A DNA stretch of 64,000 bases, from sequence record NC_101835.1; one strand, given 5' to 3'. The stretch comes from a phage. The notes beneath the pieces are model-generated. The model was not told the origin of the DNA and made no database searches. It worked only from the letters and a program-made list of their open reading frames with translations. Every line of letters starts with the position of its first letter. Position 1 is the stretch's first letter. Shown here one piece after another: positions 8,991 through 57,817 of this stretch. The position numbers were made by a program, and so were the translations under genes.

Positions 8991-9077
8991 TGGTGGGGAG
9001 TGGTGGAGTCGAACCACCCGAGTCGCAATGACAATAGATTTACAGTCTACACCGCTACCTCTACGGGATAACTCCCC
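8991..9077 (-). tRNA. tRNA-Tyr (anticodon GTA), type II
   Basis: 87 nt, acceptor GGGGAGT/ACTCCCC, anticodon loop CTGTAAA, long variable arm, T-arm GTGG-TTCGACT-CCAC, encoded CCA. Confidence 0.75.
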
Positions 9078-9081
9078 AATT

Positions 9082-9156
9082 TGGCACCCCGTACTGGACT
9101 CGAACCAGTGTCAACGGCTTAGAAGGCCGCTGCTTTATCCACTAAGCTAACAGGGC
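9082..9156 (-). tRNA. tRNA-Arg (anticodon TCT)
   Basis: 75 nt, acceptor GCCCTGT/ACGGGGT (two G-U), D-arm GCTT-AGTGGATA-AAGC, anticodon loop CTTCTAA, T-arm ACTGG-TTCGAGT-CCAGT, encoded CCA. Confidence 0.75.
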
Positions 9157-11649: not shown

Positions 11650-12000
11650 CTAACCAGTTGTTGACATTCGAATAACTTCTTCTGGTGGCAAAACTTTGGA
11701 AAATGTGCATCTTTTACCTCTCCCTTGTGTGGATATTTCAACCACTCCCGCACATTCTAAAGTTTTAACGCACGCTGCTGCTTTTGTTTTCTTTATTCCA
11801 ACATCTGCTGCAATTTTCCTTGTGCTGGGTGTGAAGCGTGAACTTCCTCCAAGCTTATACCAGTTGTGCAGGTAGCAGTATACGATCTTGTCATACAAGT
11901 CAAGAACAACAACCTCCCCAGTTGTGTCATTCAAAACTTTTGACATAGATAGTATTTCAAGGGGGACTTTAAGATATAGCAGCTTATCCCCATCTTTCAT
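11650..12000 (-). CDS. hypothetical protein, possible DNA-binding (116 aa)
   Basis: AGGAG RBS; basic C-terminal half. Confidence 0.4.
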   Translation of the reverse strand: MKDGDKLLYLKVPLEILSMSKVLNDTTGEVVVLDLYDKIVYCYLHNWYKLGGSSRFTPSTRKIAADVGIKKTKAAACVKTLECAGVVEISTQGRGKRCTFSKVLPPEEVIRMSTTG

Positions 12001-12047
12001 ATCTCCTGATTCTCCTTGTGTGGCAATTTTCTTTAAAATAGCAGGGA

Positions 12048-12602
12048 TTACTCCCCGCTGTCAATAGCAAAACTCATTGCAATACGGTATGCCTCTTCTA
12101 ATGGTAAGAGTCTCCCCCACACATCCCAACCGACATCAAACTGTCTGCCAAACAACTGTTGTGTGGTTCCGTGAGCATGACCGAACAGTTGGACTGATCC
12201 GTGAGGCTTTCTGTTCCACTTTGCAAACTGGTAATGGCTCATACAGATCAAATTCTTGTTGTGGCGAAGCTCGTAATAATCTACAACCTCATGACCGAAC
12301 TCTTTCATAATTCTGACAGTCGTCCTTGTGTCATGGTTGCCACGAACAAGAATAATATGTCCGTTCAACATATTTAGAACATCTGGGAGCAATTTGTTGA
12401 TATTCTTATCATTAGTGCACGCAATATCTCCCAAGTGAAACACAGTGTCTGCAGGTGACACAACAGAGTTCCACTTGGTGATGATTCCCGCATTCATACT
12501 GTCAAGATTGTGATCATACTGAGATCTGTGTTTTTGACATGAATCGAACTCCATGACCCGCTGGTGGAGAAAGTGTGTGTCGCTTGTTACAAAGTATTTC
12601 AT
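12048..12602 (-). CDS. calcineurin-like metallophosphoesterase (candidate RNA 3'-end healing phosphatase)
   Basis: Motifs VTSDTHF, GDI, GNHD; start taken at internal MKYFV; directly downstream of P-loop kinase. Confidence 0.6.
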   Translation of the reverse strand: MKYFVTSDTHFLHQRVMEFDSCQKHRSQYDHNLDSMNAGIITKWNSVVSPADTVFHLGDIACTNDKNINKLLPDVLNMLNGHIILVRGNHDTRTTVRIMKEFGHEVVDYYELRHNKNLICMSHYQFAKWNRKPHGSVQLFGHAHGTTQQLFGRQFDVGWDVWGRLLPLEEAYRIAMSFAIDSGE

Positions 12603-12609
12603 ACATTCC

Positions 12610-13020
12610 TCATTTAAGTTTAATGCAGTTTTTAAGCTGGCGTTCCATACGATCCACAACCCTGTCTGGAACATCATGAATGCTTTTATTACCATGGCGG
12701 TTTTCAACCACGATCACGGTATAACTATACCCATGACTGATCGCCATGTCAATATATTCTTGCACATATTTTTCTTTTGTAAACGTATTACTTACCACGA
12801 TACGGTCGTATCCCATACGCATCATATCTTCTACGTTATCTTTGCACCATTTTGCTGCAAGTGTTACTTTACTTGCATCCCAGTTATAATTTCCATCATC
12901 GTCGTACCAGAACATGTCGTTCTCAAAATGTGGATACAGACCTTCTAAAGATAGCGCATTTGCCAGTGTTGATTTGCCAGACCCTGGTAGACCACGCACG
13001 ATATATAGCATTTTAGACAT
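12610..13020 (-). CDS. polynucleotide kinase-like P-loop kinase
   Basis: ATG at 13020 with GGAGG RBS; Walker A GLPGSGKST as in T4 Pnk kinase domain. Confidence 0.6.
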   Translation of the reverse strand: MSKMLYIVRGLPGSGKSTLANALSLEGLYPHFENDMFWYDDDGNYNWDASKVTLAAKWCKDNVEDMMRMGYDRIVVSNTFTKEKYVQEYIDMAISHGYSYTVIVVENRHGNKSIHDVPDRVVDRMERQLKNCIKLK

Positions 13021-13120
13021 AGTAATCCTCCGTTTTAATTTCAACGATAGTATACCCAACTGTTTTGTTAATTTCAAGTGTTGACACCAGGTTATTTGTG
13101 TGGCAGGATAGACTGACAAA

Positions 13121-14056
13121 ATGACAAATGAGGAACGCATGATGAAGTATTTTAATGCAGACGACCTAGTTGACAAAGGTCTTGTAACCAGCAGATATTA
13201 CCCAGATCTTGGATTAAAGATCTATAAATATGCCAGAAAAGTATTTTACAACAATTTATGGCATTTGTCTCCTCGTTTGCTGGAGTGCCGAGGCATTGTT
13301 GTAGGTAATGAAGGGAATGTTGTGGCATGGCCCTTCACAAAAGTGTTTAACTTGGGAGAAAACTCCACCAACCTGCCTGACAATAAGCTTGTGACGGCGG
13401 TAGAGAAAAAGAACGGATTCCTTGGTGTGGTATCATCTCATAAAGGTGACCTATTGTTCTCAACAACCGGGTCTCTTGATTCTCCATATTGTAACCTTGC
13501 AAAGGAAACCATCCAAGAGCAATGTGGTAATTTAGATCTTATCAAGAAGGTTATGGGCAATGAAAACATGACATTCATGTTTGAAATTTGTCACCCTTCA
13601 GATCCGCATATTGTTCAAGAAGACCATGGCGCATATTTGATAGGTTGCAGATATAATGATTCTGGAATAATGCTACCAGAAGCAGCTTTAGATGGGATTG
13701 CCAAATACCTTGGTGCAAAACGTCCTCACACTGTGCGTGAAATCCCGTTCAGCTATGCAAAAGAATTAGCTGCAGAAACAAGGGGCGAAGGGTATATGAT
13801 CCGTAAGCCTTACTACCCTTATGACCTGCAGCTGAAGATCAAGTCTCCATACTATTTGGCACGGAAGGCCGTAATGAGAGGTAAAGCATGGAAGATTTGG
13901 GATGACGATATTTTTAAACGTGTTGACGAGGAGTTTTACGGTATGGTAAAATTTATTCGTAGCAACTATACAGAAGATGTGTGGAATTGCTTATTAGAGC
14001 AGGAGCGTCGCGAGATACTGGACTGCTATTTCCACAACGAGGACTATATGCAATGA
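13121..14056 (+). CDS. rnlA: RNA ligase 1 (T4 RnlA-like)
   Basis: Recalled similarity to T4 Rnl1: LLECRGIVV, KVFNLGEN, nucleotidyltransferase motif I KKNG. Confidence 0.7.
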   Translation: MTNEERMMKYFNADDLVDKGLVTSRYYPDLGLKIYKYARKVFYNNLWHLSPRLLECRGIVVGNEGNVVAWPFTKVFNLGENSTNLPDNKLVTAVEKKNGFLGVVSSHKGDLLFSTTGSLDSPYCNLAKETIQEQCGNLDLIKKVMGNENMTFMFEICHPSDPHIVQEDHGAYLIGCRYNDSGIMLPEAALDGIAKYLGAKRPHTVREIPFSYAKELAAETRGEGYMIRKPYYPYDLQLKIKSPYYLARKAVMRGKAWKIWDDDIFKRVDEEFYGMVKFIRSNYTEDVWNCLLEQERREILDCYFHNEDYMQ

Positions 14057-14403
14057 AGAAGTGGATTGTGTGGCTTGATGATTTTAGAGATCCGTCAGAT
14101 TATGGACTCCCAGACGCTCTGTGGCTAAAGAATTCTTCTGAATTTATGGATTTTCTTAATGATAAGAGAAAGCTCTACAGACGCGTATCTGAATGGTATT
14201 TTGACAATGATCTAGGTGAAGTTCTTGAAGGGTACGACTGCTTCTCTGCGCTAGAGGAGAAACTTGTATTCGGAAAGCCACCACTTATTGACAACGTGAT
14301 TATTTTCGTGCATACTTCTAATCCATCGGCAGCTCGTAAATTTATGCTTGCTGCTGACTCATTCAAGAAGTTTGGAATAGAGATCAAACAAAACATCTAC
14401 TAA
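14053..14403 (+). CDS. hypothetical protein (116 aa), Rossmann/receiver-like N-terminus
   Basis: ATG overlaps rnlA stop (ATGA); starts MKKWIVWLDDFRDP. Confidence 0.4.
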   Translation: MKKWIVWLDDFRDPSDYGLPDALWLKNSSEFMDFLNDKRKLYRRVSEWYFDNDLGEVLEGYDCFSALEEKLVFGKPPLIDNVIIFVHTSNPSAARKFMLAADSFKKFGIEIKQNIY

Positions 14404-14411
14404 GGACATTT

Positions 14412-15173
14412 ATGCGACGACTTATTGTTATTTCTGGTGCTGGTTTGAGCGCAGAATCTGGTATTCCCACCTTCCGATCTGGTAGCACTGCAATGTGGGA
14501 GAATTTCAGCATCGATGAGGTGTGCAACATCCACACCTTTGCCAAGAACTACTATAAGGTGCATGACTTTTACAATGCACGTCGTGTAGCTCTGGGCAGT
14601 GTTGATCCTAACCTTGCACATCTTCGGATCGCTGAGTGGTATTCCCGCTGGTCTGGTCGTGTGATCAACCTTACTACCAATGTAGATGATTTGCTGGAGC
14701 GTGCTGGTGTAAAACATGAAGATATTTTACATGTCCACGGGTATTTGCCTGAAATCACCTACGAAGATGCTGAAGGTAATGATGTAATTAAAAATATCGG
14801 ATACACGGAGGTAGATACAGGCAAGTATACCTGGGTTAAGCCCAATGTAGTGTTCTTCGGTGAGGTTGCTCCTAAGTATACAGACATGTATGACCTGTTG
14901 ACATCTCTTACCAGCAATGATATGGTGATCCTGGTAGGTTGTTCTAACACAGTTATTAATTTTAACTGGGAATTGTTTCCTGCTACTTGTAAAGGCACAA
15001 AACTGCTGATTGTAAACAAGTATGATTCGCAGAGTGCAGATGGAAGTGGCATTTCACGTAGCGACCTTTATCAATATGAGGATCGCGGGATCCCTGTATG
15101 GTTTAACGGTGCTGTTGACGCTTTCTCTGATAAAGCATTTATTGAAACTGTAGAAAACTTTATGGAACTGTAA
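14412..15173 (+). CDS. Sir2-family NAD-dependent deacylase/ADP-ribosyltransferase
   Basis: GAGLSAESGIPTFR NAD-binding motif and HG catalytic motif; no zinc-ribbon cysteines. Confidence 0.7.
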   Translation: MRRLIVISGAGLSAESGIPTFRSGSTAMWENFSIDEVCNIHTFAKNYYKVHDFYNARRVALGSVDPNLAHLRIAEWYSRWSGRVINLTTNVDDLLERAGVKHEDILHVHGYLPEITYEDAEGNDVIKNIGYTEVDTGKYTWVKPNVVFFGEVAPKYTDMYDLLTSLTSNDMVILVGCSNTVINFNWELFPATCKGTKLLIVNKYDSQSADGSGISRSDLYQYEDRGIPVWFNGAVDAFSDKAFIETVENFMEL

Positions 15174-15187
15174 GAGGTGACCTTTTA

Positions 15188-15901
15188 ATGCTAAATACTA
15201 AACTGATCGACAACCTGGAAAAACTGTCTCAGCCTGAAAACTACCTTTGGTCTGCCAACTGGGTGGAAAACTGGAACCGTGTGGCAGCTAAAGTGAAAAA
15301 ATCATACACACCATTCGAATTACAGCTTAGCTTCATTGAGGAAGAGTTCAATGAGGTTTTGGAAGAGCTGGAGAAAGGTGATGGTGGAGATCACCTGCTA
15401 AAAGAGGCCTGCGATCTTCACGTTGTCACAAGTTATGCAGCTTATCTCGTTAATGACAATCACGAAAAGTGGTCAAACCTGTTTGATAATCCACGAGGTC
15501 TTAAGTTCAAGATCGGTGAGTTCTATGATACACTGATCGCTGCGAAAAACACATCCAAGCAAAGAGCGTCAGCTTACCGCTTAGCGGAGTTGTCAACAGC
15601 TTTGCTGTTCCAGCTTCGCGGCGATGTGTGCGGGATGATGCGTAAGGTTCTCAAATCTAATGACAGCAAGTTTGCACGGGTAAACCATCTACGGTATTCA
15701 CACGGTGCCAGTGCAGATATGCCTGCTGAACAACTCATAGAGTTGGAGATTAAAGATCTTGAGCGACGCTTTGATGGTCGCTACGAAGGTTTTGTTGCTA
15801 AGGAAGAGTTCTACAACGGTAATAAAGTTATCATATTCCTTGACAGTAAAGGTAAGATCATGAAGCCTTCGAGCTTCAAGGATGTAACAGAGTATATTTG
15901 A
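15188..15901 (+). CDS. MazG-like nucleotide pyrophosphohydrolase domain protein (tentative)
   Basis: EExxE...ExxD pattern (FIEEEFNEVLEELEKGD...KEACD). Confidence 0.35.
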   Translation: MLNTKLIDNLEKLSQPENYLWSANWVENWNRVAAKVKKSYTPFELQLSFIEEEFNEVLEELEKGDGGDHLLKEACDLHVVTSYAAYLVNDNHEKWSNLFDNPRGLKFKIGEFYDTLIAAKNTSKQRASAYRLAELSTALLFQLRGDVCGMMRKVLKSNDSKFARVNHLRYSHGASADMPAEQLIELEIKDLERRFDGRYEGFVAKEEFYNGNKVIIFLDSKGKIMKPSSFKDVTEYI

Positions 15902-15963
15902 CAACATAGCCGGGTAATCCCGGCTTTACTTATTATGGAAAGTATGCAGCGAGGTAGTTAGTT

Positions 15964-16272
15964 ATGTACAAGCATTCCAGAAATCTTGAAAAAGATGCTG
16001 TGTTTGGCGACCAGATGAAGGAGCTGATCAAACTTATAGGTAGAATGGAAGATAAGTTTGACACTAAAATCTACATCGATAGCAAGATCTTCAACCACAA
16101 AATATGGACAAATGTGTGTGTTGGGCTACATGGTGATAAAGATATTGTAAATTTGGTTGTAATAAAGTTCATAGTGTGGCAGAATAAGACTATACGTTAT
16201 TCCGATCCACACTTACTTGTTTATCCTATAAAAGACCTACTACAGAAGGAGGACTGCAATGCCGTTATTTAA
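15964..16272 (+). CDS. hypothetical protein (102 aa)
   Basis: ORF in co-directional gene block. Confidence 0.35.
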   Translation: MYKHSRNLEKDAVFGDQMKELIKLIGRMEDKFDTKIYIDSKIFNHKIWTNVCVGLHGDKDIVNLVVIKFIVWQNKTIRYSDPHLLVYPIKDLLQKEDCNAVI

Positions 16273-16528
16273 TCTTGCTAAACCTGTAGAAGCCCACCAG
16301 TTTGACGGAAGCTCTTCATCAGTATCTGATCTGCAACGGTGGATTGATACAGGTGTGTTTACATCGTCACCTGTTCGGACCAGAGATCTTCGTCGCATGT
16401 GTGAGCTTGTCGAGCCTTTTGGTAACCTTGTCCTGTACCAGGGAGATTGGCTAGTTGACTTTATGGGAGACTGGTTGGTAATGAGTAAAGAAGAGATGTT
16501 TAAAATTTTTAAGGAAGAGGCCGAGTAA
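16259..16528 (+). CDS. hypothetical protein (89 aa)
   Basis: ORF in co-directional gene block. Confidence 0.35.
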   Translation: MPLFNLAKPVEAHQFDGSSSSVSDLQRWIDTGVFTSSPVRTRDLRRMCELVEPFGNLVLYQGDWLVDFMGDWLVMSKEEMFKIFKEEAE

Positions 16529-17811
16529 TGCATCAAATCAAAACAACACTGTACGCACTGAACAAAGATGGCAGCTACCAACAGTGGAAAGTATTCACTG
16601 ATGGCGAAAAGGTTATCGTAGAGTTTGGCAAGCTTGACGGTAAATTGCAGTACAAAGAGACGGTATGCACACCTAAGAACGTAGGTCGTGCCAATGAGAC
16701 TACAGCTGAGCAACAGGCCGAGCTTGAGGCTATTAGCAAGTGGGAAAAACAAGTCCGTCTGGGGTATGTTGAAAACATGGAAGATTGCGAGCAGGGTGTT
16801 GATCTTTTACCCATGCTGGTGCATGACTACCTGAAGCGTGGCAAGGCACTTAAACTACCTTGCTGGATCTTGCGTAAGTTAGATGGCCTTCGTCTGCTTG
16901 TTGTTTTCCAAAATGGTGAGCCTAAATTTATTTCCCGTGGTAATAAGTCCTACCCTATTCAAGGAAAGCTTTTAGAGCAACTTCGTTCTTTCCATTCTAC
17001 CACTGGGATTAAACAACTTGATGGGGAACTATACATTCATGGTCTTCCTTTGCAGAAAATAGTGTCTCTTGCTAAACGGTGGCGCACACAGGAAGAGATT
17101 CAGGCCGAGATCGATAAAGACTATGAGGCAGATAAAAAACGCCGTCATGCAGCAATTAAGGCAGGCTTATCAACATACAAAAACTTCAACAAGGTAGATA
17201 TTCCTGTCGATGTTGAGCCTGTTCGTGATGATTTGCGTTACGGTGGGTACTGTAGCTACGATCTGGAGTATCACATTTTTGATATTCCTAGCGACAAGGT
17301 GTGGTGGGATCCAGAAACAGAGTCTGGACGCTGCAAGGATCTTATGGATGCAGAGGATACCGTTACCACTCTGATGCTTGACCATATCAAGGTTGTTGAC
17401 GCAGAGCTTGCGTACACAGTTGATCATTGCGAAGAATCTGTTGGTATATTCATGTCCGAAGGATATGAAGGTACTATCATGCGTAATTTCTGCGGTAAAT
17501 ACGAGTACGGTCAGCGAACATCTGAAGCATTGAAATGGAAAAAGTTCAACGACGCAGAGGTGAAAGTTATTGACGTTGAGAAAGATAAGAATGATGAAGG
17601 TGTTCTTATCTGTGTTGACAAGGAAGGTGTTATTGTTAAAATGAAGATGAAAGGCACGCACGAGGAGCGTAGCTATGACAGGATGCAGGAAATGATCGGC
17701 AAGTTTGTCACCTTCAAATATCAATCAAGGACAGAAGACAACAACTACCAATTCCCTGTCGGTATCTGCGTCCGAAATGTTGACCCAGACACTTGGGAGG
17801 TTCTGGAATGA
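16528..17811 (+). CDS. ATP-dependent DNA ligase
   Basis: Adenylation motif I LRKLDGLR (KxDGxR); ~427 aa. Confidence 0.7.
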   Translation: MHQIKTTLYALNKDGSYQQWKVFTDGEKVIVEFGKLDGKLQYKETVCTPKNVGRANETTAEQQAELEAISKWEKQVRLGYVENMEDCEQGVDLLPMLVHDYLKRGKALKLPCWILRKLDGLRLLVVFQNGEPKFISRGNKSYPIQGKLLEQLRSFHSTTGIKQLDGELYIHGLPLQKIVSLAKRWRTQEEIQAEIDKDYEADKKRRHAAIKAGLSTYKNFNKVDIPVDVEPVRDDLRYGGYCSYDLEYHIFDIPSDKVWWDPETESGRCKDLMDAEDTVTTLMLDHIKVVDAELAYTVDHCEESVGIFMSEGYEGTIMRNFCGKYEYGQRTSEALKWKKFNDAEVKVIDVEKDKNDEGVLICVDKEGVIVKMKMKGTHEERSYDRMQEMIGKFVTFKYQSRTEDNNYQFPVGICVRNVDPDTWEVLE

Positions 17812-49898: not shown

Positions 49899-50185
49899 TG
49901 AAAGATCTGGTTAAGATTAAGATTAAAGATACCAATGGAGAACTCAGTCATTTTGGAATTAATGATGGTGACGAGCTGATCGCACACCTGCCTACCAAGG
50001 AGGTTGTAAGCAAAGCAGTTGCCGGAGAAGAAGCTGCAATGCAGGCTGCAGGTGTGGATGAAAACTATGTAGCTATGTGCATGTGCCGAGATCAGGTTGT
50101 TCTGTATAAAGCGTATCGACCAAACGGAGCCACGGAGTGGCTTGTATTCCGACCCGAAGGATATGAAATCTTAGAGGCACTATGA
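49898..50185 (+). CDS. small acidic protein, possible family A member
   Basis: Coupled ORF; C-terminal YEILEAL. Confidence 0.35.
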   Translation: MKDLVKIKIKDTNGELSHFGINDGDELIAHLPTKEVVSKAVAGEEAAMQAAGVDENYVAMCMCRDQVVLYKAYRPNGATEWLVFRPEGYEILEAL

Positions 50186-50274
50186 TAAATCTTGCCAAGG
50201 TTGCAACGGCACTGTTAGTTATTTGCTGGTCTGTAACCTTAACACTGTGTCTTGTATTTCAGTGAGGTGCTTGT

Positions 50275-50538
50275 ATGAACATCCTGATGTGGGTTATAGC
50301 AGTGGCGTTTGTTGCATGTTTTTGCTGCTGGGTTGCGGTGAGGATTTCTGTAGCTACCCTTCGGAAGTTGGGGTTCTCAGAATGGGATATTAATATCCTT
50401 TCTTTTCGCAATGAAACAATCTCAGCCGCCCTGCTTTGTAAGAAATTTAAGTGGGAACCTTGTGAGGTCATGAGCTATCTAAGAACAGGCGATATCCCTG
50501 AAAGATTTAAAAAAGTTCTTGACGGCAAGGATAAATGA
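50275..50538 (+). CDS. small membrane protein (87 aa)
   Basis: N-terminal TM helix. Confidence 0.35.
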   Translation: MNILMWVIAVAFVACFCCWVAVRISVATLRKLGFSEWDINILSFRNETISAALLCKKFKWEPCEVMSYLRTGDIPERFKKVLDGKDK

Positions 50539-50693
50539 CAGTATAGTGACTAACAAGAGGTGAGGAATGACTGATTTTACTGAAGCTTTAATGATGGCCT
50601 TGTCTGTTTTAGCGCTATCGGTGTGTTTTGGGGCGTTATTCACATCTCTGGTTAAAGTTTTACATACAGTATTATTACCCAAGGAGCGCAGTA

Positions 50694-50945
50694 ATGACGA
50701 AGATTGACTTAAATGCTGGAGACCATGTTGTTGTCAAATGCATCGGAGATTATCTTGGATTCACAATCGGCAATACTTACGAGGCGGTAGTGGCGAAGGT
50801 TTACCATGATAAAGTCCTCAGTCTTGTATTTGACTGCGATGATGATGGGGATGACCGATACGTCTGTGAGGTGCTGGCACGAGACGATAGTGAAGACCAG
50901 AAATTCCTGGTTATTGAACTGAACGGTATTTTTGTAGAACGTTAA
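50694..50945 (+). CDS. hypothetical protein (83 aa)
   Basis: Internal ATG of ORF 50628..50945 with AAGGAG RBS. Confidence 0.35.
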   Translation: MTKIDLNAGDHVVVKCIGDYLGFTIGNTYEAVVAKVYHDKVLSLVFDCDDDGDDRYVCEVLARDDSEDQKFLVIELNGIFVER

Positions 50946-50973
50946 TTTAAAACAACATAAGGAGACTCTTACT

Positions 50974-51279
50974 ATGGCTAAATCTAAAGTTGAACTGTTC
51001 ACCTCTCTTCCTTCTGACACTGCAGAGCGTGATCGCCTTCGCAAAACAATCGAAGAACTGGTAGAACTCCAACTTCAGATTAAAGATCTGAAAGATGCCA
51101 TTAAGGATATCATTCTCGTTGAGAAGCAGGATCACCTGTATTCTCCTAAATTCATCAAATCTCTGGTGGCTACCGAGTTCGATATTCGCTATGAGGCTGA
51201 AAAACGTCGCGCTAAAATCGAAGAAGAGGTTGAGCACATGTCTGAGGCAGACATTCTGTTCAAACGCTCTGTAGAATAA
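50974..51279 (+). CDS. hypothetical coiled-coil protein (101 aa)
   Basis: AAGGAGA RBS; followed by strong terminator. Confidence 0.4.
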   Translation: MAKSKVELFTSLPSDTAERDRLRKTIEELVELQLQIKDLKDAIKDIILVEKQDHLYSPKFIKSLVATEFDIRYEAEKRRAKIEEEVEHMSEADILFKRSVE

Positions 51280-51285
51280 TGACAA

Positions 51286-51312
51286 AGAGGGGGGCTTGGG
51301 CCCCTCTTTTTA
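51286..51312 (+). terminator. rho-independent terminator
   Basis: AGAGGGG-ggcttggg-CCCCTCT then TTTT. Confidence 0.55.
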
Positions 51313-51334
51313 CTATCTATGAAGGAGATTTGAG

Positions 51335-51661
51335 ATGGGTATACCGATTACTGTAAAAGAGCTAAATGAACGTGATGCAGGTGGTCTATGGCCTGCACGA
51401 AAAATCCGCTGCGTCTATATGAAAGAGAATCTTGAACATCTTGATCAACAGATAAAGGTCGGCGATATTTTCGAGGTCTTCTATTCCAATCGGCGCAACT
51501 GGGAAACCATTCAGCCTTCTGGTTTTGTTCTTGCCAAACTTGACACTGGAGAAGTGATTATCCCTGGGTTGGATATTGTCTTCGAAATTATCCAAGAGTG
51601 GGATCCGGATAAGATTAGATACGAAGAATTATTCGGTAAAGGTATTATCAAACCTGTGTGA
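51335..51661 (+). CDS. hypothetical protein (108 aa)
   Basis: GAAGGAGA RBS. Confidence 0.4.
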   Translation: MGIPITVKELNERDAGGLWPARKIRCVYMKENLEHLDQQIKVGDIFEVFYSNRRNWETIQPSGFVLAKLDTGEVIIPGLDIVFEIIQEWDPDKIRYEELFGKGIIKPV

Positions 51662-51969
51662 GGTGGATTATGTCTACAAAGGCGGCTAAATACTCCTATA
51701 TGCCATCAACCTCTGCAGAGGTAGACTTTAGTTTCGATGTGTTTCCACTGTTTGAGGTGGTTCTGGCATACCCAACAATACTAACTACTCCTGAATCACT
51801 TGTGCCTGTTAAGTTGCAGAACGCTATGCATTCTATGCACTACAACAATAAATGTAGGCACAGATGGTGTCAGGACGAGGAAAAAGATTTGGATAGTTTG
51901 AGAGATTTTGACAGTCACCTTTTGACACCTTTTAGCTACTCCAACCTTGATAAGCCCTCATGGGTATAG
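51658..51969 (+). CDS. hypothetical protein (103 aa)
   Basis: Coupled ORF. Confidence 0.35.
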   Translation: MRWIMSTKAAKYSYMPSTSAEVDFSFDVFPLFEVVLAYPTILTTPESLVPVKLQNAMHSMHYNNKCRHRWCQDEEKDLDSLRDFDSHLLTPFSYSNLDKPSWV

Positions 51970-51993
51970 CAAAATATCAAATTTAAGACACCT

Positions 51994-52020
51994 AGGACGC
52001 TCTGTGGCGTCCTTTTCTTT
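51994..52020 (+). terminator. rho-independent terminator
   Basis: AGGACGC-tctgtg-GCGTCCT then TTTTCTTT. Confidence 0.5.
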
Positions 52021-52182
52021 GTCTGGTGCACGATTGCATACCTTGGACAGATAATCTCGTTACAGAGCGTTTAAGAGCTTCCTACAAACAACTCCATATT
52101 TCGAGCGTAGCGAGAACGCACGTCCGTTTTGACCCAAATCACCATACGCTCGGATTTTAACCAAACCCTCGCGGCGTTTCTA

Positions 52183-52217
52183 TTGACACATTACAGCTCC
52201 AGTGATAATATCCACAC
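52183..52217 (+). promoter_or_regulatory. sigma70-like promoter
   Basis: TTGACA-N17-TAATAT. Confidence 0.4.
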
Positions 52218-52231
52218 ATCATTTGGAGAAT

Positions 52232-52333
52232 ATGGAATACACTATGAGAACATTGTCCGAAGTTTTAGTGGTGATCCTGATGATCATTACGTCCATAGCG
52301 GCTGTTGCCGGAATACTCACAGGTGGAACATGA
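52232..52333 (+). CDS. small transmembrane peptide (33 aa), tentative
   Basis: TGGAGA RBS; single hydrophobic helix; stop overlaps next ATG (ATGA). Confidence 0.25.
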   Translation: MEYTMRTLSEVLVVILMIITSIAAVAGILTGGT

Positions 52334-52542
52334 TCAACACACATGCATCTGAAGAGACATCCGAAGGAGTGACCATATGTCCCTTGGATGAGCCAGTTAA
52401 AGAGGAAAACTTAGATTCTGAGGACTCTTCATCTTCGTCCCAGACAGATCCTGAGGCTGATGACCTGACGTGGGAGGACATCGTAGATATCTGGTTCTCT
52501 ATTATGCCTGAGCACGAAGAGTTCAGAGGTGGTAGACTATGA
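52330..52542 (+). CDS. small highly acidic protein (70 aa)
   Basis: 3' part of ORF 52129..52542 from internal ATG; 5' part of that ORF spans the promoter and is judged non-coding. Confidence 0.3.
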   Translation: MINTHASEETSEGVTICPLDEPVKEENLDSEDSSSSSQTDPEADDLTWEDIVDIWFSIMPEHEEFRGGRL

Positions 52543-52661
52543 AGCACCGAGCCCACACAGGTTCCTCATGCTAAAGCATGGCCTGAAGAGGCAAACGTGC
52601 ATAATTCCTGCGCATTTGGACGTATAATCCTGTTCACACTCTCATTTCCAGAGGAGATTTT

Positions 52662-52877
52662 ATGAAGATAGAGATATTTGGTGGAGCTGACAACACTCGT
52701 GGCCTGATTTACCTTGAATTCGATGAATCATACCTGCCAGAGGTGTTAAATATAGACTCTGTTGCTGAGGCTTTGGGAGTAAACCCTAAAGAACTCCACT
52801 CTTGTGCTGAGATCGATGGTTGGGAAGAGACCATGAACATTGATTTCAGTGAAGTAGAGGATGAACCGCTGGACTGA
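52662..52877 (+). CDS. small acidic protein (71 aa)
   Basis: GAGGAGA RBS. Confidence 0.35.
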   Translation: MKIEIFGGADNTRGLIYLEFDESYLPEVLNIDSVAEALGVNPKELHSCAEIDGWEETMNIDFSEVEDEPLD

Positions 52878-53219
52878 CACACAATTAGCTGCCCGGCTAA
52901 AGTGCTGGAAGCACCTATAACACATCTTTCAACTAAATTTCCTACCACCACAATCACTTACCTCCCACACATGACTGTTTGCTTGTTTAGTGAGCAGTCA
53001 TGCCTTGACATTCTTGCCTATCCTGATAAAATTAAGTTCTTCTCTTTTCTTTTACCGAGTAATTCGGGTTTTCTGTTCTCTTCGGTTTGAAGGGGTATGG
53101 AGATACACCTGAGTGAACAGGGTGAACAACCGAACCTTTGGCTATGGCATTAGCATGGCGAAGCGGACGGGTGACGAAAGAGGGGCCGGAGGACACCAGT
53201 CACTGCCATATGATATATG

Positions 53220-53800
53220 GGTGATAACCTGAAGAGTCTGAATAAGTGTTTAAGTACCAGTCAGAGGAAAAGGTGAATGGTAGCCGAAGGGGGGAGGGGG
53301 GTTTCTTGTATCTTTAATTTGTATATTATGTATACACTTGTAAACCAATCTAATCTGAATCTGTTTACCACACAAAGCGGATAGAGACAAATATTGCCTA
53401 TTAAACTTGAATTATTTATAGAAAATACCACAACACTACTTAAGTCTTTGATTTTACACACAAATCCTGCAGATATTCACCCTCCATATTTAACATACTT
53501 GTAACATATTCCATACTCTACCTGCCCGATCAATTCACCCAACTACATCCCCATATTTTCCCTGTCTGTACTACCCCTGCCCCGCCGGGAGTCCCATCAT
53601 ATCTGGCTTTCCAGCAAATATCACACCCACAAATATCATTGCCTGAAGAGGGTTTCATCCCATAATACCTGCCTTACCTGAAGAGCGCTTCATACACCAC
53701 GTAAATTTTTTAATTGACCTCCCCCTGCCCCGCCGGAGAGGTTGGCTTTTCCCACACAGACCTGAAGAGTCAGCCAGAAATATCTGAATAGGCCCAATTC
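53220..53800. repeat. dispersed direct repeats in non-coding region (CCTGAAGAG x4; CCCTGCCCCGCCGG x2)
   Basis: CCTGAAGAG at ~53226, 53643, 53677, 53761; CCCTGCCCCGCCGG at ~53573 and ~53722. Confidence 0.5.
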
Positions 53801-54339
53801 TACCACGATTTTGACCTGACCTACAGGGAGGCCCGAAGGGTCTAGCTTTCAGCTAGAGTCCTTGCAGGACCTACAGGAGCGCTGCCAGGCGGACGGAATG
53901 GGAATACTTCTCATTCTTATAACAATTCTCAAATATCGAGGCAGTGAGAGAAATTAATAGGCCAGGCCGTTCACACAGTGGCACAACATTTGCAACCTAT
54001 TTTGTGTGGATGAATGAGAATACCTATCATTATGAGAATAGTTATCATTACTGGCAATTTAACATAATACCCATTATGCGCACCACTGGCGATCCATACA
54101 GGGATTGATAACATGAGTTACTGTTTACGCATATAACAATTATATTTATTACTATTTGTGTTGGGTATAGTTAGCAGCCGATAGATTAGATATTGACCTG
54201 CAGACTTCCAACTGTCTAGACGTCTAAACGCCCACACAGCAAGGATTATACATACACAACTGAATGTAAACAGGGCCGCAAAAATGCTACCATACCAGAT
54301 TGTAAATTTTTCATGCAGCACTTGACAAAGAGGAGGAAA

Positions 54340-54760
54340 ACTTGTCTGACATACTGTGACATAATATGACATAATAGTGACACACTGGGCATACTCAACA
54401 CTGGATACAATAACAATTGTTACTATTGCATGCCTCACTGTTCACGCATAGATGATAAGCCATGCCATTCGTTTGCATGACAATAATTAACTTGTTTACA
54501 ATCTTTCACTGGCTATGCCAGGTGACCTTTGGTCACCCCTTCGGGTGTTTCTATGACATAATATAAAAGCAGGGCAACTATTAGAAGATCTATAGTTGCC
54601 TTGCTTGTTATGTCATGATTAACTAAATACAAGGCAACTATGATCTGATTAATAGATTGCAGACAAACTATCACGGGGGTGATGGTTACTGCTTTTATAT
54701 TATGTCGCGACTCCGTCGCGCCATGCCATTCGTTTGCATAGTTGCCTTATTGTTACAGGT
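54340..54760. repeat. iteron/palindrome cluster, candidate replication origin or regulatory hub
   Basis: Tandem TGACATAAT-type 10-bp repeats (~54343-54375) plus inverted copies near 54553 and 54688; 20-bp direct repeat CCATGCCATTCGTTTGCAT at 54462 and 54722; palindrome GGCAACTAT...ATAGTTGCC. Confidence 0.5.
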
Positions 54761-55350
54761 AAAATAATTACATTATTAATTATTTCTTATCTTTCTCTTA
54801 GTCATCTAATGATTCCAGTCAGTATAGTAATGTACAGTAAACATTAGACGACTAAATATTTCTCTGTTTATGATAACTCACCGTGACAATTTCGGACTGT
54901 TTACGAAAAATGTTGACACCTAAGCTGATTTATGTTATGCAGTTTACACGAATAATTATTTTATGCAGGTATTGACTATTCCGTTATTCTGTGGTTGGAA
55001 TAAATACTTTGCAGGCTATAGAATGGCGTGCGTACATGAATTCTGAGATCTGGCGGCTATAGTTATACTCGATTTTTCACGTAGAACACGCTTTTTAGTT
55101 TGTGTAAGTGTATGACTTATAAGAATTTTTACTTGTTGACAAGATATTGAAGATCTGCATCAGGTTAAAATTTGTGCAATAGCTGCATTACGTGCAATTT
55201 TGGAAGGGAAAACGGGTAAAAATAGCCCTGCTACCACACAATGAAAAGTTATGCAATAGTTATTTTACATGTATATTTGTACAGTGTGTGGGGTTGATGG
55301 CTCGTCAATTATTCCACTTGCCAGGTAGGGCCGTTTATGGTAGGAGAAGA

Positions 55351-55380
55351 GCAGACAAAAAGAAAGGGGCCTAAGCCCCT
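55351..55380 (-). terminator. rho-independent terminator for minus-strand block (possibly bidirectional)
   Basis: AGGGGC-ctaa-GCCCCT hairpin; T-run on minus strand after the stop of gene 55400..55819. Confidence 0.5.
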
Positions 55381-55399
55381 TGATAATTCAGTTAAAAAA

Positions 55400-55819
55400 T
55401 TATAATGATTCGTATATTTCAAAAATCCGATTTGCCAGGTCGTTACGGTAGCGGAATTTTTCCTCACGTTTGATCATAAGATCTTTATAGCCGTACTCTT
55501 TAAGCACTTCATTAACTTTATGGCGGCATACTTTCATATTATCCTGCGCGTCACCAATAAATCTGTTGCTATGGTGCATGGCTTTAATTTCTTCTTCCAG
55601 GACCAGGGCAACTATGCGGACCGGATCAAGCTGATAGGCGGTAACATCCATGCGGCATTGTAAACGGCTTTTTACGTCTGCCACCGGATATACTGCAACC
55701 TCTTCCCCGTCAACATTGACAATAATTAGTTTACCATCGATTTCGAATCCTTTCGCCGCCGGACCGTGACAAAAAGCGTTATCAAAGCTATATGCCGGAT
55801 TATTAGATTTAATGTTCAT
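55400..55819 (-). CDS. hypothetical protein (139 aa)
   Basis: AAGAGGTAAA RBS. Confidence 0.45.
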   Translation of the reverse strand: MNIKSNNPAYSFDNAFCHGPAAKGFEIDGKLIIVNVDGEEVAVYPVADVKSRLQCRMDVTAYQLDPVRIVALVLEEEIKAMHHSNRFIGDAQDNMKVCRHKVNEVLKEYGYKDLMIKREEKFRYRNDLANRIFEIYESL

Positions 55820-55963
55820 GGTGTTTTTACCTCTTAGTTAATTTTCTTACAACTTCCCTTCAAAAAAGAATATAGCAAAACTGCCGATCCCTGTCAACCA
55901 GGGATAGCATAATTTTTATGTGATCAAGGGGCTTTATTGCCCCTGACCATGTAACTTGTTGTA

Positions 55964-56227
55964 TTATTTGTTGCTCATCCAGTTTTCCCAAGCTGCCTGA
56001 TAATCTGCCTCACTACGGCGGATCTCTTCTTGCTCTTCAAGGCGGATCTCTTCTTCCAGGTACCCCAAGATGTCAGCCTTTTTAGTCTGGCGCAGCATCC
56101 AGTCATCTTTTTTGCGAGTGAAGATCTTATAAGCTTTCTCGCAAACCTCTTTTTTGCTACCTTTCTGGACTTCAAGAACACGATAAGCCATATATTGAAC
56201 TAATTTGAGCTGATCAAGACGTTTCAT
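55964..56227 (-). CDS. hypothetical protein (87 aa)
   Basis: AAGAGGTAAA RBS. Confidence 0.4.
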   Translation of the reverse strand: MKRLDQLKLVQYMAYRVLEVQKGSKKEVCEKAYKIFTRKKDDWMLRQTKKADILGYLEEEIRLEEQEEIRRSEADYQAAWENWMSNK

Positions 56228-56287
56228 GATGTTTACCTCTTTGTGCGGTTCTGATTAGTGGGCCTTTTGGCCCGTGTCATTATCTTA

Positions 56288-56560
56288 TTACTTATGGCGG
56301 CAGAATTCAAGCGTTTTTAATTGATAATCTTCCTCAGCTTGGAGTACGACCGCCTCGATCATTTCGTTGGCATTGTTAAAGCCATAACCTTTAGCGAACT
56401 CATCCGCGCCACCTTCGTGATCATGTTCTGCGTTCATCGCTTCCACAAAATGGAATTCCAAATTGTTGAGGTAGGGGCTTGATGTTCCGTCCTCTTTTTC
56501 GATGAGATCCCAAATAGCATTAAAACGTGATTCGACTTCTTGATTAATCCAGCTTGACAT
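56288..56560 (-). CDS. hypothetical acidic protein (90 aa)
   Basis: 5' UTR hairpin GGGGCAAAAGTGCCC then GGAGAGAGGAA RBS. Confidence 0.4.
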   Translation of the reverse strand: MSSWINQEVESRFNAIWDLIEKEDGTSSPYLNNLEFHFVEAMNAEHDHEGGADEFAKGYGFNNANEMIEAVVLQAEEDYQLKTLEFCRHK

Positions 56561-56771
56561 AGTGTTTTCCTCTCTCCTGGTTGTTGTGTGGGCACTTTTG
56601 CCCCTTCAAGATAAATGTTACCCCACCCCATGGCAGATGTCAACGGTTTTTATAGTTCTTATATGACAGGCAGGCCCGGTGATTGTCTCCCCCCGTCGCC
56701 AGGTGCCTGCCGTGAAACAAGTATAACAAAAAACAGGACCATTGCAAGCCCTGTTTTGTAGTTTATAAATA

Positions 56772-56963
56772 TTATATTTTTTCGCCTATGTAGTCCGGTC
56801 GGTTTTTCTCTGTCATGCGCTTTAGCAATTCTTGCATGTTGCTTATGGCTTGTAGTGTATCCCCTTCCAGGCTTGAATCGACATAATCAGGATCGTCTAT
56901 GACCTTTCTATGATTATGATAACGCAGTACCGCCAATACCTTTCTGACTTGTTCGATATTCAT
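56772..56963 (-). CDS. hypothetical protein (63 aa)
   Basis: ORF on block strand. Confidence 0.3.
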   Translation of the reverse strand: MNIEQVRKVLAVLRYHNHRKVIDDPDYVDSSLEGDTLQAISNMQELLKRMTEKNRPDYIGEKI

Positions 56964-57112
56964 TTTTACCGCTCTTTAAAACAAGGTGCCAACCGTTTCC
57001 AATAGATCACTGACTGCCAGGACAATACCGATCAGCACATATCTAACCATAAGGGGAAAGAGCGCCAATATTGCCACCACAATCCCCAAGGTGATAATTA
57101 TCTTTCTCATGG

Positions 57113-57406
57113 TTAACGGTTCACGTAAGTTTTCCCGTTCACGGTTATGGGCAGATCCTCCAGGTCTGGATCTTCCTTAAGGTCGCGAGCAAGCTCACCG
57201 CACCGGATACCCTCGAATCCGTAGTACTCTGTTGTGCCGTCCTTAAAAGTTTTAGCGGCAAGGCATAAGCGATAAGTAACCCCGATTTGATTGACGGCAT
57301 GAATATCCGTTAGATTAACCTCTTTTGCCAGCTCTTTAGCCATTACAGGCGCATTAAGTCCAACAACCAGGGCAACCACTGCGATCATCTTTTTCATTGT
57401 GTCCAT
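57113..57406 (-). CDS. small secreted/periplasmic protein (97 aa)
   Basis: AAGAGGA RBS; N-terminal signal peptide MKKMIAVVALVVGLNAPVMA. Confidence 0.4.
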   Translation of the reverse strand: MDTMKKMIAVVALVVGLNAPVMAKELAKEVNLTDIHAVNQIGVTYRLCLAAKTFKDGTTEYYGFEGIRCGELARDLKEDPDLEDLPITVNGKTYVNR

Positions 57407-57488
57407 CCTCTTTCTGCTACGTTTAAGGCGGCGGTAACCGCCTGTTTATGCTTTGTTGGTTAATTTTCGGGTATAGGTATAAATTAAA

Positions 57489-57704
57489 CTATGCTGTACG
57501 CTCAACTATAACAACGGCTTGAGGGATCTCACCTTCAACCACTATCAAGGCTTTTTTCTGCGTGATAGATATCTTTACCCGCTTCAGCGTGGCGGTAAAA
57601 TCTTTCATTTCGTCACGTGGTGTTTTAGTGCAATACCAGATCTCAGGCTTGCCGATCTGTAAGTTGCGTAAAAATTCTGTTTTGCCTGTTTTGTTAGTGA
57701 TCAT
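57489..57704 (-). CDS. hypothetical protein (71 aa)
   Basis: GGTGAGG RBS. Confidence 0.35.
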   Translation of the reverse strand: MITNKTGKTEFLRNLQIGKPEIWYCTKTPRDEMKDFTATLKRVKISITQKKALIVVEGEIPQAVVIVERTA

Positions 57705-57712
57705 TTGGCAAC

Positions 57713-57817
57713 CTCACCCGATACCGTTGGAAGACAAGATCGCATTAGCCATGGTTGCAATCAGGCCAATACCCAGGGCAATAACCAAGATCACTGCATC
57801 GATTAATTTCTGTTTCA
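57713..57817 (-). CDS. small hydrophobic peptide (34 aa), tentative
   Basis: Minus-strand ATG..TGA encoding MKQKLIDAVILVIALGIGLIATMANAILSSNGIG; below ORF-track cutoff. Confidence 0.25.

What the first reader, a model, noticed from the sequence alone, without database searches (positions are those of the whole stretch)
14053..15901. Sir2-family protein with receiver-like and MazG-like neighbours
Directly after rnlA lie a 116-aa protein with a Rossmann/receiver-like start, a Sir2 homolog with intact NAD-binding and HG motifs but no zinc ribbon, and a MazG-like pyrophosphohydrolase candidate. Sir2 domains are NAD-consuming effectors in bacterial defence; a phage-borne cluster may manipulate NAD or nucleotide signalling.
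Basis: partly seen in the sequence, partly recalled or inferred. Interest (0 to 1): 0.55.

Follow-up and report, generated by a model that had tools for sequence, protein, structure and literature searches.

The report
Phage RNA-repair operon with a sirtuin
The three genes are real and correctly recognised, but they are the tail of an already-published, still untested RNA-break repair gene cassette of rV5-like E. coli phages, in which a zinc-less sirtuin is predicted to use NAD+ to clean up RNA ends.

Summary
Window 14053-15901 encodes three tightly packed, conserved proteins. The first is a 116-aa cREC receiver-like domain (Pfam PF20274). The second is a 253-aa Sir2 with intact NAD/catalytic motifs and no zinc-binding cysteines. 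The third is a 237-aa all-alpha NTP pyrophosphohydrolase of the MazG/HisE superfamily whose fold is closest to dimeric dUTPases.

The window is an rV5-like Vequintavirus, 97-98% identical to known phages. The genes are rV5 gp079-gp081. With the Rnl1-type RNA ligase they form one operon. A polynucleotide-kinase-like P-loop kinase and a calcineurin-type phosphoesterase are transcribed divergently next to it.

Iyer et al. 2022 (Viruses 14:1977) already described exactly this neighbourhood, with phage V5 as prototype. They proposed that the sirtuin acts like KptA/Tpt1 and removes RNA 2'-phosphates. I found no experimental test of this.

New here:
- The sirtuin keeps the CobB/SIRT5 Tyr/Arg pair that binds acidic groups.
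- It is not a defence-type NADase.
- Related phages keep the cassette but move the sirtuin about 32 kb away.
- T5-like phages pair the sirtuin with an RNA-repair HAD phosphatase.
- The "MazG-like" protein could simply be the phage's missing dUTPase.

Verdict: real, ordinary in novelty (already known in silico), and biochemically still open.

The parts
12048..12602 (-). Calcineurin-type metallophosphoesterase (rV5 gp076 homologue). Candidate RNA 3'-end healing enzyme acting on 2',3'-cyclic or 3'-phosphate.
   Evidence: Pfam Metallophos_2 5e-6 and Metallophos 9e-4; phrog_547 5e-47. Best PDB match is 1xm7 at 7e-11. The DxH, GD, GNHD, H and GHxH motifs are at least 95% conserved in 21 homologues.
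12610..13020 (-). P-loop kinase, polynucleotide-kinase-like (rV5 gp077 homologue). Candidate RNA 5'-OH kinase.
   Evidence: Pfam AAA_33 2.5e-10; phrog_2071 4.5e-57; phrog_505 'polynucleotide kinase' 7e-10. Walker A G10-T18, D35 and R108 are conserved. Annotated 'polynucleotide kinase' in BASEL phage records.
13121..14056 (+). Rnl1-family ATP-dependent RNA ligase (rV5 gp078 homologue). First gene of the operon.
   Evidence: Pfam RNA_lig_T4_1 1e-14 (55 bits, gathering score 28.3); phrog_562 1e-65. Motif I K96-x-N-G, motif III F154-E155, motif IV E223-G224 and motif V K239/K241 are conserved. It scores below the TIGR02308 equivalog cut-off.
14053..14403 (+). cREC: stand-alone 'cyclic-phosphate processing' receiver-like domain (rV5 gp079 homologue).
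14412..15173 (+). Zinc-less class-III-like sirtuin (rV5 gp080 homologue).
   Evidence: Pfam SIR2 7e-28; phrog_2162 2e-108. Best PDB hits are CobB 1s5p at 2.4e-21 and SIRT5 at 9e-21. G9-A-G11, F21-R22, Y54/R57, N90/D92 and H109-G110 are invariant. There are no Zn cysteines. No PADLOC hit.
15188..15901 (+). All-alpha NTP pyrophosphohydrolase (MazG/HisE/dimeric-dUTPase superfamily; rV5 gp081 homologue).
15908..15925 (+). Terminator-like GC-rich hairpin closing the four-gene operon.
   Evidence: AGCCGGG-TAAT-CCCGGCT followed by a T-rich tail, 7 nt after the stop codon. This is a consensus match only.
16528..17811 (+). ATP-dependent DNA ligase (rV5 gp084 homologue). Constant syntenic neighbour of the cassette; a functional link is not shown.
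   Evidence: Pfam DNA_ligase_A_M and OB_2; phrog_114 4e-83. It lies immediately after Sir2 in about ten related ~146-kb phages.

Best explanation
The three genes are the distal part of a four-gene operon: rnl1, cREC, sir2 and an NTP pyrophosphatase. With a divergently transcribed PNK-like kinase and a calcineurin-type phosphoesterase, this operon forms the RNA-break (tRNA) repair cassette of an rV5-like Vequintavirus.

Shown:
- The domain identities.
- Intact catalytic motifs in all six proteins.
- The operon structure.
- Conservation of the cassette in related phages.

Inferred:
- The kinase phosphorylates the 5'-OH.
- The phosphoesterase and/or cREC resolve the cyclic phosphate.
- Rnl1 seals the break.

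Hypothesised (Iyer et al. 2022):
- When the cyclic phosphate is opened to a 2'-phosphate, the sirtuin transfers it to NAD+ in a KptA/Tpt1-like reaction. [quoted passage not shown]
- cREC may linearise that product.
- A pyrophosphatase may degrade it. Here this would be the MazG-like protein; in jumbo-phage variants it is a Nudix.

My own inference is that the chemistry is plausible. Sirtuin catalysis (an oxyanion attacks C1'' of NAD+, then the ribose 2''-OH attacks the acyl centre) parallels the two Tpt1 steps. This clade also keeps the catalytic His and the Tyr/Arg pair that binds anionic acyl groups in CobB and SIRT5.
For: Identities and motifs.

Operon junctions and terminator-like hairpin.

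Same cassette with rearranged gene order in about 12 loci of ~146-150-kb phages at 45-60% protein identity.

Independent contexts linking this sirtuin clade to RNA-end phosphatases:
- A T5-like genome has Sir2 followed by HAD_SAK_2, the 'Swiss Army Knife RNA repair' HAD domain, at 4e-20.
- A 175-kb phage has a Sir2 relative near HAD_SAK_2 (5e-28) and NAD-salvage-type genes.

Published analysis names phage V5 as the prototype and proposes the KptA-like role. cREC is linked to RNA ligases in phage and cellular genomes.

Y54/R57 align with CobB Tyr92/Arg95.

A tRNA gene cluster lies 4 kb away.

Tpt1 mechanism: PMC6097658 abstract. A calcineurin-type phosphatase acts as an RNA 3'-end healer in the Clostridium thermocellum Pnkp; the calcineurin-type fold of that domain is from my own knowledge, and the paper is PMC1920235.
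Against: - No experiment exists for any of the three proteins.
- The kinase, phosphoesterase and Rnl1 already make a complete T4-style heal-and-seal pathway that needs no 2'-phosphate removal.
- In phi92-like phages the cassette is intact but the sirtuin sits about 31-32 kb away, among hypothetical genes and a C5 DNA methylase.
- Much of the adjacency is shared ancestry of related phages, not independent association.
- By sequence the sirtuin looks like a CobB-type lysine deacylase.
- The MazG-like protein resembles dUTPases most closely, and rV5 has no annotated dUTPase (about 62 kb of the 138-kb record, coordinates 50001-61657, was not viewed).
Confidence: 0.5

Rival explanations
1. The sirtuin is a CobB/SIRT5-like NAD+-dependent protein lysine deacylase, for example a desuccinylase. 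It would reset acylation of host or phage proteins during infection. Its position next to RNA-repair genes would reflect inherited gene order, not a shared pathway.
For: Best solved relatives are E. coli CobB (2.4e-21) and SIRT5 (9e-21). NCBIfam 'NAD-dependent protein deacylase' gives 8e-36. All NAD and catalytic residues plus the class-III Tyr/Arg pair are conserved. The gene is separable from the cassette in phi92-like phages.
Against: The whole clade lacks the four zinc cysteines of the small domain that shapes the peptide-binding cleft. All NCBIfam scores are far below the equivalog cut-offs, 123 against 243 bits. Association with RNA-end phosphatases recurs in unrelated phage lineages. 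The host already has CobB.
Confidence: 0.3
2. The sirtuin would be an NADase or ADP-ribosyltransferase that manipulates NAD+ levels or NAD-derived defence signals. cREC and the pyrophosphatase would degrade cyclic ADPR-type messengers.
For: cREC and pyrophosphatases are predicted to process ADPR derivatives. One distant Sir2 relative lies near a Thoeris inhibitor Tad3 gene and NAD-salvage-like genes. Zinc-less Sir2 domains are typical of non-deacylase sirtuins (own knowledge).
Against: No significant hit to any defence-type Sir2 model in PADLOC, and SIR2_2 scores only 0.097. A phage that depletes NAD+ would harm its own replication. There is no Macro, TIR or SLOG partner. The immediate partners are an RNA ligase, a kinase and a phosphatase.
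Confidence: 0.1
3. The third gene (15188-15901) is not part of any NAD or RNA pathway. It would be the phage's dimeric-type dUTPase/dCTPase-like house-cleaning enzyme, supplying dUMP to the phage ThyX and keeping uracil out of DNA. This does not exclude the other explanations for cREC and Sir2.
Against: Sequence profiles favour HisE/MazG-type cores. Identity to dUTPases is only 7-14%. Uracil-recognition residues were not examined. The gene is co-transcribed with Sir2 here. It co-occurs with cREC in every locus of this cREC subfamily that extended far enough to include it.
Confidence: 0.4
4. The sirtuin works with the adjacent ATP-dependent DNA ligase in DNA-end repair or DNA modification, rather than on RNA.
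For: Sir2 is immediately followed by, and often overlaps, the DNA ligase gene in about ten ~146-kb phages.
Against: In the window two small genes and the pyrophosphatase separate them. T5-like phages and phi92-like phages show no such adjacency. No known chemistry links a sirtuin to an ATP-dependent ligase.
Confidence: 0.05

Closest known systems
Sirtuin-centred phage RNA-repair neighbourhood, type 2 (Iyer, Burroughs, Anantharaman & Aravind 2022, Viruses 14:1977, section 3.7.3 and Fig. 5f)
   Same: Identical. The paper names Escherichia phage V5 and Proteus phage Mydo as prototypes. It lists sirtuin, T4-like tRNA ligase, cREC, nucleotide kinase, MazG-family pyrophosphatase and an occasional calcineurin-like phosphoesterase. 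The window is 97% identical to phage V5 here.
   Different: Nothing structural differs. The paper is purely computational. Details added here are the dUTPase-like fold of the 'MazG' protein, retention of the CobB Tyr/Arg pair, and relocation of the sirtuin in phi92-like phages.
Phage T4 Pnkp + Rnl1 tRNA heal-and-seal pathway (counter to the PrrC anticodon nuclease)
   Same: An Rnl1-family ligase with motifs I, III, IV and V, plus a 5'-kinase and a 3'-end phosphatase activity encoded together.
   Different: The kinase and phosphatase are separate proteins. The phosphatase is calcineurin-type, not the HAD/DxDxT type. The ligase is 311 aa and falls far below the T4 RnlA equivalog score, 38.6 against 242 bits. 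cREC, sirtuin and pyrophosphatase have no T4 counterpart.
Fungal/plant Trl1 + Tpt1 (bacterial KptA) pathway: the CPDase makes a 2'-PO4, and an NAD+-dependent 2'-phosphotransferase removes it
   Same: The proposed logic is the same: a cyclic phosphodiesterase (cREC), a kinase, an Rnl1-clade ligase and an NAD+-using enzyme. The two-step chemistry is parallel (PMC6097658).
   Different: The NAD+ enzyme is a Rossmann-fold sirtuin, not the ART-fold Tpt1/KptA. The CPDase candidate is REC-like, not 2H. None of the activities has been demonstrated.
Class III sirtuins CobB (E. coli) and SIRT5
   Same: About 36% identity to CobB over the aligned core. GAGxS, FR, N/D and the HG catalytic residues are present. 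So is the Tyr/Arg pair (CobB Tyr92/Arg95) used for acidic acyl groups.
   Different: No zinc-binding cysteines and a shorter small domain in the whole phage clade. A C-terminal extension is conserved only in phages. Scores are below the NCBIfam deacylase cut-offs.
Dimeric dUTPases and the MazG/HisE all-alpha NTP pyrophosphohydrolase superfamily
   Different: Only 7-16% identity. There is an extra conserved C-terminal beta-hairpin module carrying the GRY and GKIMKP motifs. The substrate is unknown.
Defence-associated Sir2 NADases (ThsA, DSR1/2, Sir2-HerA, SPARSA)
   Same: A Sir2 fold without a zinc ribbon, presumably consuming NAD+.
   Different: No PADLOC model matches. It matches the classical SIR2 Pfam model rather than SIR2_2. 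It has no sensor or partner domains, and it is phage-encoded inside a repair operon.

Membership tests
Sir2 / sirtuin superfamily (Pfam PF02146) | Profile match above the curated threshold | tested here: met
   98.2 bits against a gathering score of 24, E 7e-28, covering profile positions 1-178 of 180.
Sir2 / sirtuin superfamily (Pfam PF02146) | NAD+-binding GAGxS and FR motifs, Asn/Asp of the (T)QNxD motif, and the catalytic His of the HG motif | tested here: met
   G9-A10-G11, S16, F21-R22, N90, D92 and H109-G110 are invariant in 32 aligned sequences, including CobB.
Canonical protein-deacylase sirtuins (CobB/SIRT5 type) | Cys4 zinc ribbon in the small domain | tested here: not met
   No conserved Cys between H109 and K143 in any of 31 phage clade members. 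CobB has its cysteines in the aligned segment.
Canonical protein-deacylase sirtuins (CobB/SIRT5 type) | Class-III Tyr-x-x-Arg pair that binds acidic acyl groups | tested here: met
   Y54 and R57 are invariant and align with FYNARR of CobB. CobB Tyr92/Arg95 are needed for desuccinylation (PMC6636992).
Canonical protein-deacylase sirtuins (CobB/SIRT5 type) | NCBIfam equivalog score, and lysine deacylase activity | tested here: not met
   The best NCBIfam score is 123 bits against a cut-off of 243. Enzymatic activity cannot be tested with these tools.
Defence-type Sir2 NADase effectors | Match to the defence Sir2 models (PADLOC; Pfam SIR2_2) and an associated sensor or partner | tested here: not met
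   PADLOC gave only a 0.0094 hit with no matched stretch. SIR2_2 scored E 0.097, below its cut-off. The neighbours are RNA-repair genes.
cREC (Pfam PF20274, cyclic-phosphate processing receiver domain) | Profile match above threshold | tested here: met
   52.3 bits against a cut-off of 27. All full-length homologous clusters carry PF20274.
cREC (Pfam PF20274, cyclic-phosphate processing receiver domain) | Receiver (CheY-like) fold with conserved acidic active-site residues and no histidine-kinase partner | tested here: met
cREC (Pfam PF20274, cyclic-phosphate processing receiver domain) | Cyclic phosphodiesterase activity on 2',3'>P RNA or ADP-ribose 1'',2''>P | not testable with these tools
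   The activity is a prediction only and is stated to be uncharacterised.
All-alpha NTP pyrophosphohydrolase superfamily (MazG/HisE/dimeric dUTPase) | Helical core with an EExxE ... (E)xxD metal-binding motif | tested here: met
   E52 is nearly invariant; E53, E56 and D76 are invariant. The family profile aligns this motif to HisE 1yvw at E 0.012. Of 50 relatives, 36 hit PRA-PH. The window protein alone is below threshold, 13.7 against 21.3 bits.
Dimeric dUTPase family | Fold similarity beyond the four-helix core | tested here: met
Dimeric dUTPase family | Uracil/deoxyribose recognition residues and dUTP/dUDP hydrolysis | not tested
   Residue-level comparison with 1w2y or 5myd was not possible with the outputs available. 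Identity is only 7-14%.
T4 Rnl1-family RNA ligase | Pfam RNA_lig_T4_1 match and nucleotidyltransferase motifs I, III, IV and V | tested here: met
   55.4 bits against a cut-off of 28.3. K96-x-N98-G99, F154-E155, E223-G224 and K239/K241 are conserved. It is not an equivalog of T4 RnlA, 38.6 against 242 bits.
Sirtuin-centred phage RNA-repair system (Iyer et al. 2022, type 2) | Sirtuin gene linked to T4-like ligase, cREC, nucleotide kinase and MazG, with or without a calcineurin-like phosphoesterase | tested here: met
   All six genes lie within 12048-15901. The window is 97% identical to the named prototype phage V5.
KptA/Tpt1-like RNA 2'-phosphotransferase (functional class) | [quoted passage not shown] | not testable with these tools
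   The fold is unrelated to KptA, so only biochemistry can decide. No such experiment was found.

The most novel reading that the evidence does not exclude
A zinc-less, CobB-like sirtuin has been recruited by phages as an RNA 2'-phosphotransferase. This would be a nucleic-acid-directed, phosphate-accepting activity never demonstrated for the sirtuin fold. It would work with a receiver-domain-derived cyclic phosphodiesterase (cREC) and a dUTPase-like pyrophosphatase that disposes of the ADP-ribose cyclic phosphate by-product. Together these would give phages a second, NAD+-dependent route to repair tRNAs cut by host anticodon nucleases.
Probability: 0.3. Interest if true: 0.75.

Novelty: already known. 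Interest (0 to 1): 0.35.

Why it matters
If the published prediction is right, three enzyme folds would gain new biochemical activities: a sirtuin as RNA 2'-phosphotransferase, a receiver domain as cyclic phosphodiesterase, and an all-alpha pyrophosphatase acting on ADP-ribose derivatives. Common E. coli phages (rV5-like and T5-like, both used in phage-therapy collections) would then carry an NAD+-dependent counter-measure to tRNA-cleaving defence systems.

The proteins are small and soluble-looking and come from culturable phages, so the question can be tested directly. As a genome-scan finding, however, it adds little. The genes are annotated in more than 100 phage records, and the neighbourhood and hypothesis are already in the literature.

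Tried and rejected
- Defence-system membership of the sirtuin: PADLOC gave no significant hit. Rejected.
- Sequence search of the solved-structure library: nothing for cREC, for the single MazG-like protein, for the RNA ligase or for the kinase.
- Using the 50-member MazG-like alignment to fetch related loci failed because it has no sufficiently conserved stretch. The independent genomic context of that family therefore could not be surveyed.
- The afdb50 fold library was unavailable.
- Context of distant cREC relatives (30-32% identity; L097, L099) was uninformative. Only sigma-factor-like and SEC-C hits appeared.
- Context of the sirtuin in phi92-like phages showed only a C5 DNA methylase and hypothetical proteins.
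- The promoter scan found no more sigma-70-like sites than shuffled sequence would give, 20 against 15.5 +/- 3.6. No promoter is claimed.
- Literature searches for experimental work on phage sirtuins, or on Vequintavirus RNA repair, found none. The NARP3 paper concerns T5-like NAD+ salvage, not the phage sirtuin.
- I considered that 'rnlA' meant the E. coli RNase LS toxin. It is in fact the T4-type RNA ligase.
Full report
**1. What is there**

The window is part of an rV5-like myovirus (Vequintavirus). Bases 12000-16300 match 121 phage records, 117 of them over at least 80% of the query. Identity is 96.8% to Escherichia phage V5 and up to 98.6% to other records.

The finding's coordinates correspond to rV5 gp079, gp080 and gp081. 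In RefSeq these are annotated 'hypothetical protein', 'Sir2 (NAD-dependent deacetylase)' and 'nucleotide pyrophosphohydrolase'.

They follow a 311-aa ORF at 13121-14056.

The four genes are packed like an operon:
- The ligase stop overlaps the next start (ATGA).
- The other gaps are 8 and 14 nt, each with a purine-rich ribosome-binding site.
- A GC-rich hairpin with a T-rich tail follows the last stop.

**2. Identities**

The upstream gene is a T4-Rnl1-family RNA ligase (Pfam RNA_lig_T4_1, 55 bits against a gathering score of 28). Nucleotidyltransferase motifs I, III, IV and V are conserved. It is not the E. coli RnlA toxin.

The 116-aa protein matches Pfam PF20274, the 'cyclic-phosphate processing receiver domain' (cREC), at 9e-14.
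- Every full-length homologous cluster found carries the same domain.
- It keeps a receiver-like constellation of residues: D9-D10, D51/D53, T88-S89 and K96.

The 253-aa protein is a bona fide sirtuin (Pfam SIR2, 7e-28).
- A 31-member phage clade at 50-93% identity keeps GAGxS, FR, the Asn/Asp of TTNVDDL and the catalytic HG.
- The clade has no zinc-ligand cysteines between HG and KPNVVFFGE.
- Its nearest solved relatives are E. coli CobB (2.4e-21) and human SIRT5.
- It retains the Tyr/Arg pair (Y54, R57) that corresponds to CobB Tyr92/Arg95, required for desuccinylation.
- It does not resemble defence-type Sir2 NADases. There is no PADLOC match, and SIR2_2 scores below threshold.

The 237-aa protein is the weakest call from sequence alone (PRA-PH E 0.084; nothing in the PDB by sequence).
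- An exhaustive search found 81 representative relatives, all 200-270 aa.
- Of 50 of these, 36 hit PRA-PH and 12 hit MazG.
- The EExxE...D metal motif is invariant.
- The family profile aligns that motif to HisE.
- It therefore belongs to the all-alpha NTP pyrophosphohydrolase superfamily and is architecturally closest to dimeric dUTPases. It also has a conserved C-terminal beta-hairpin module.

**3. Surroundings**

Two genes are transcribed divergently from the ligase:
- A 136-aa P-loop kinase (AAA_33; PHROG 'polynucleotide kinase' 7e-10).
- A 184-aa calcineurin-type metallophosphoesterase with all five signature motifs.

Kinase, phosphatase and Rnl1 together are the classical RNA heal-and-seal triad. 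A tRNA gene cluster lies 4 kb away. An ATP-dependent DNA ligase follows 0.6 kb downstream.

**4. Conservation elsewhere**

I scanned viral contigs with the sirtuin and cREC alignments, then searched the loci with profiles of all cassette proteins.

- About a dozen ~146-150-kb phages keep the cassette at 45-60% protein identity but with rearranged order. An example is PPase - Rnl1 - cREC - kinase - Sir2 - DNA ligase - ... - MazG-like.
- In phi92-like ~150-kb phages the block cREC - PPase - (Rnl1 - kinase) - DNA ligase - MazG-like persists. The sirtuin there lies about 31-32 kb away, among hypothetical genes and a C5 methylase.
- T5-like genomes lack the cassette near the sirtuin. They place a HAD_SAK_2 'Swiss Army Knife RNA repair' phosphatase 0.3 kb downstream.
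- A more distant relative in a 175-kb phage lies near HAD_SAK_2, NMNAT-like, Nudix and Tad3 genes.

The sirtuin clade is thus repeatedly, though not invariably, linked to RNA-end phosphatases. The cREC to MazG-like link is the more constant one within this phage group. Part of the adjacency is shared ancestry.

**5. Literature**

[quoted passage not shown] They list sirtuin, T4-like tRNA ligase, cREC, nucleotide kinase, MazG pyrophosphatase and an occasional calcineurin-like phosphoesterase.

They propose that the sirtuin acts like KptA in removing 2'-phosphates derived from 2',3'-cyclic phosphates. In their scheme the accessory enzymes either open the cyclic phosphate or process the ADP-ribose cyclic phosphate product.

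The cREC concept comes from their 2021 jumbo-phage paper. They state that cREC is experimentally uncharacterised. I found no later experimental paper.

**6. Mechanism**

Shown:
- Domain identities.
- Intact active-site motifs.
- Operon structure.
- Conservation of the cassette.

Hypothetical:
- The sirtuin performs a Tpt1-like NAD+-dependent 2'-phosphate removal.
- The pyrophosphatase degrades the by-product, taking the place of the Nudix domain seen in the jumbo-phage variant.

The chemistry is plausible. Both sirtuins and Tpt1 start with an oxyanion attacking C1'' of NAD+. This is followed by attack of the ADP-ribose 2''-OH on the acyl or phosphoryl centre (Tpt1 mechanism: PMC6097658; sirtuin mechanism from established knowledge). 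The Tyr/Arg pair that binds carboxylates in CobB and SIRT5 could bind a phosphate; that is my own inference.

Arguments against:
- The kinase, phosphatase and ligase triad needs no such step.
- The sirtuin is separable from the cassette.
- By sequence it looks like a deacylase.
- The third protein may simply be the phage's dUTPase. rV5 has ThyX and ribonucleotide reductases but no annotated dUTPase in the parts of the record viewed (record coordinates 50001-61657 were not viewed).

**7. Verdict**

Novelty is 'already known'. The genes are annotated in over a hundred records, and the system and its hypothesis are published for this very phage. The biochemical question remains open and testable, which gives moderate residual interest.

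Noticed in passing
window 5636-6478 (-): Rfam gathering-level match to a group I catalytic intron (RF00028), 50.3 bits against a threshold of 50, E 8e-10. The host gene and any homing endonuclease were not examined.
   Followed up: no
window 8432-9156 (-): A tRNA cluster with Met, Thr, Ser(UGA), Tyr(GUA) and Arg(UCU). It also holds an odd 97-99-nt tRNA-like element at 8589-8687. ARAGORN reports a 4-base anticodon for it, and Rfam scores it as tRNA at 35.5 bits. The rV5 annotation has no gene at that position, and it lists a tRNA-Pro that ARAGORN did not report here.
   Followed up: partly
window 15188-15901 and public records: Annotation slip in databases. The MazG-like protein is named 'Sir2-like protein' in phage vb_EcoM_bov22_2 (99% identical). 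Several GenBank records list 'putative Sir2-like protein (x2)' under this region.
   Followed up: partly
window 12000-16300 vs GenBank MG065654 etc.: The closest records (98.5-98.6% identity) are 18 unannotated entries named 'Campylobacter phage', with host C. jejuni. All other matches are E. coli or Shigella Vequintavirus phages. The host label looks doubtful.
   Followed up: no
L092/L033, L094/L037, L096/L034 (phi92-like ~150-kb contigs): The cREC - phosphoesterase - (Rnl1 - kinase) - DNA ligase - MazG-like block is kept, but the sirtuin gene lies about 31-32 kb away. In L092 and L096 the profile scan detected no RNA ligase or kinase within the locus.
   Followed up: partly
L079 5591-10888: A distant sirtuin relative (35% identity) in a 175-kb phage sits in a block with several other genes: AAA_28, an NMNAT-like cytidylyltransferase, Nudix, Tad3 (type I Thoeris inhibitor, 5e-34), HAD_SAK_2 and YqeY. 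This is a possible NAD-salvage / anti-Thoeris / RNA-repair island.
   Followed up: no
window 15964-16528 (+): Two small conserved genes of unknown function (102 aa, phrog_7684; 89 aa, phrog_14585) lie between the operon and the DNA ligase. Homologues travel with the cassette in related phages.
   Followed up: no
rV5 genome NC_011041 (annotation viewed for 1-50000 and 61658-137947): No dUTPase is annotated in the parts viewed, although an FAD-dependent thymidylate synthase and aerobic and anaerobic ribonucleotide reductases are present. The dUTPase-like fold of gp081 may fill this gap.
   Followed up: partly
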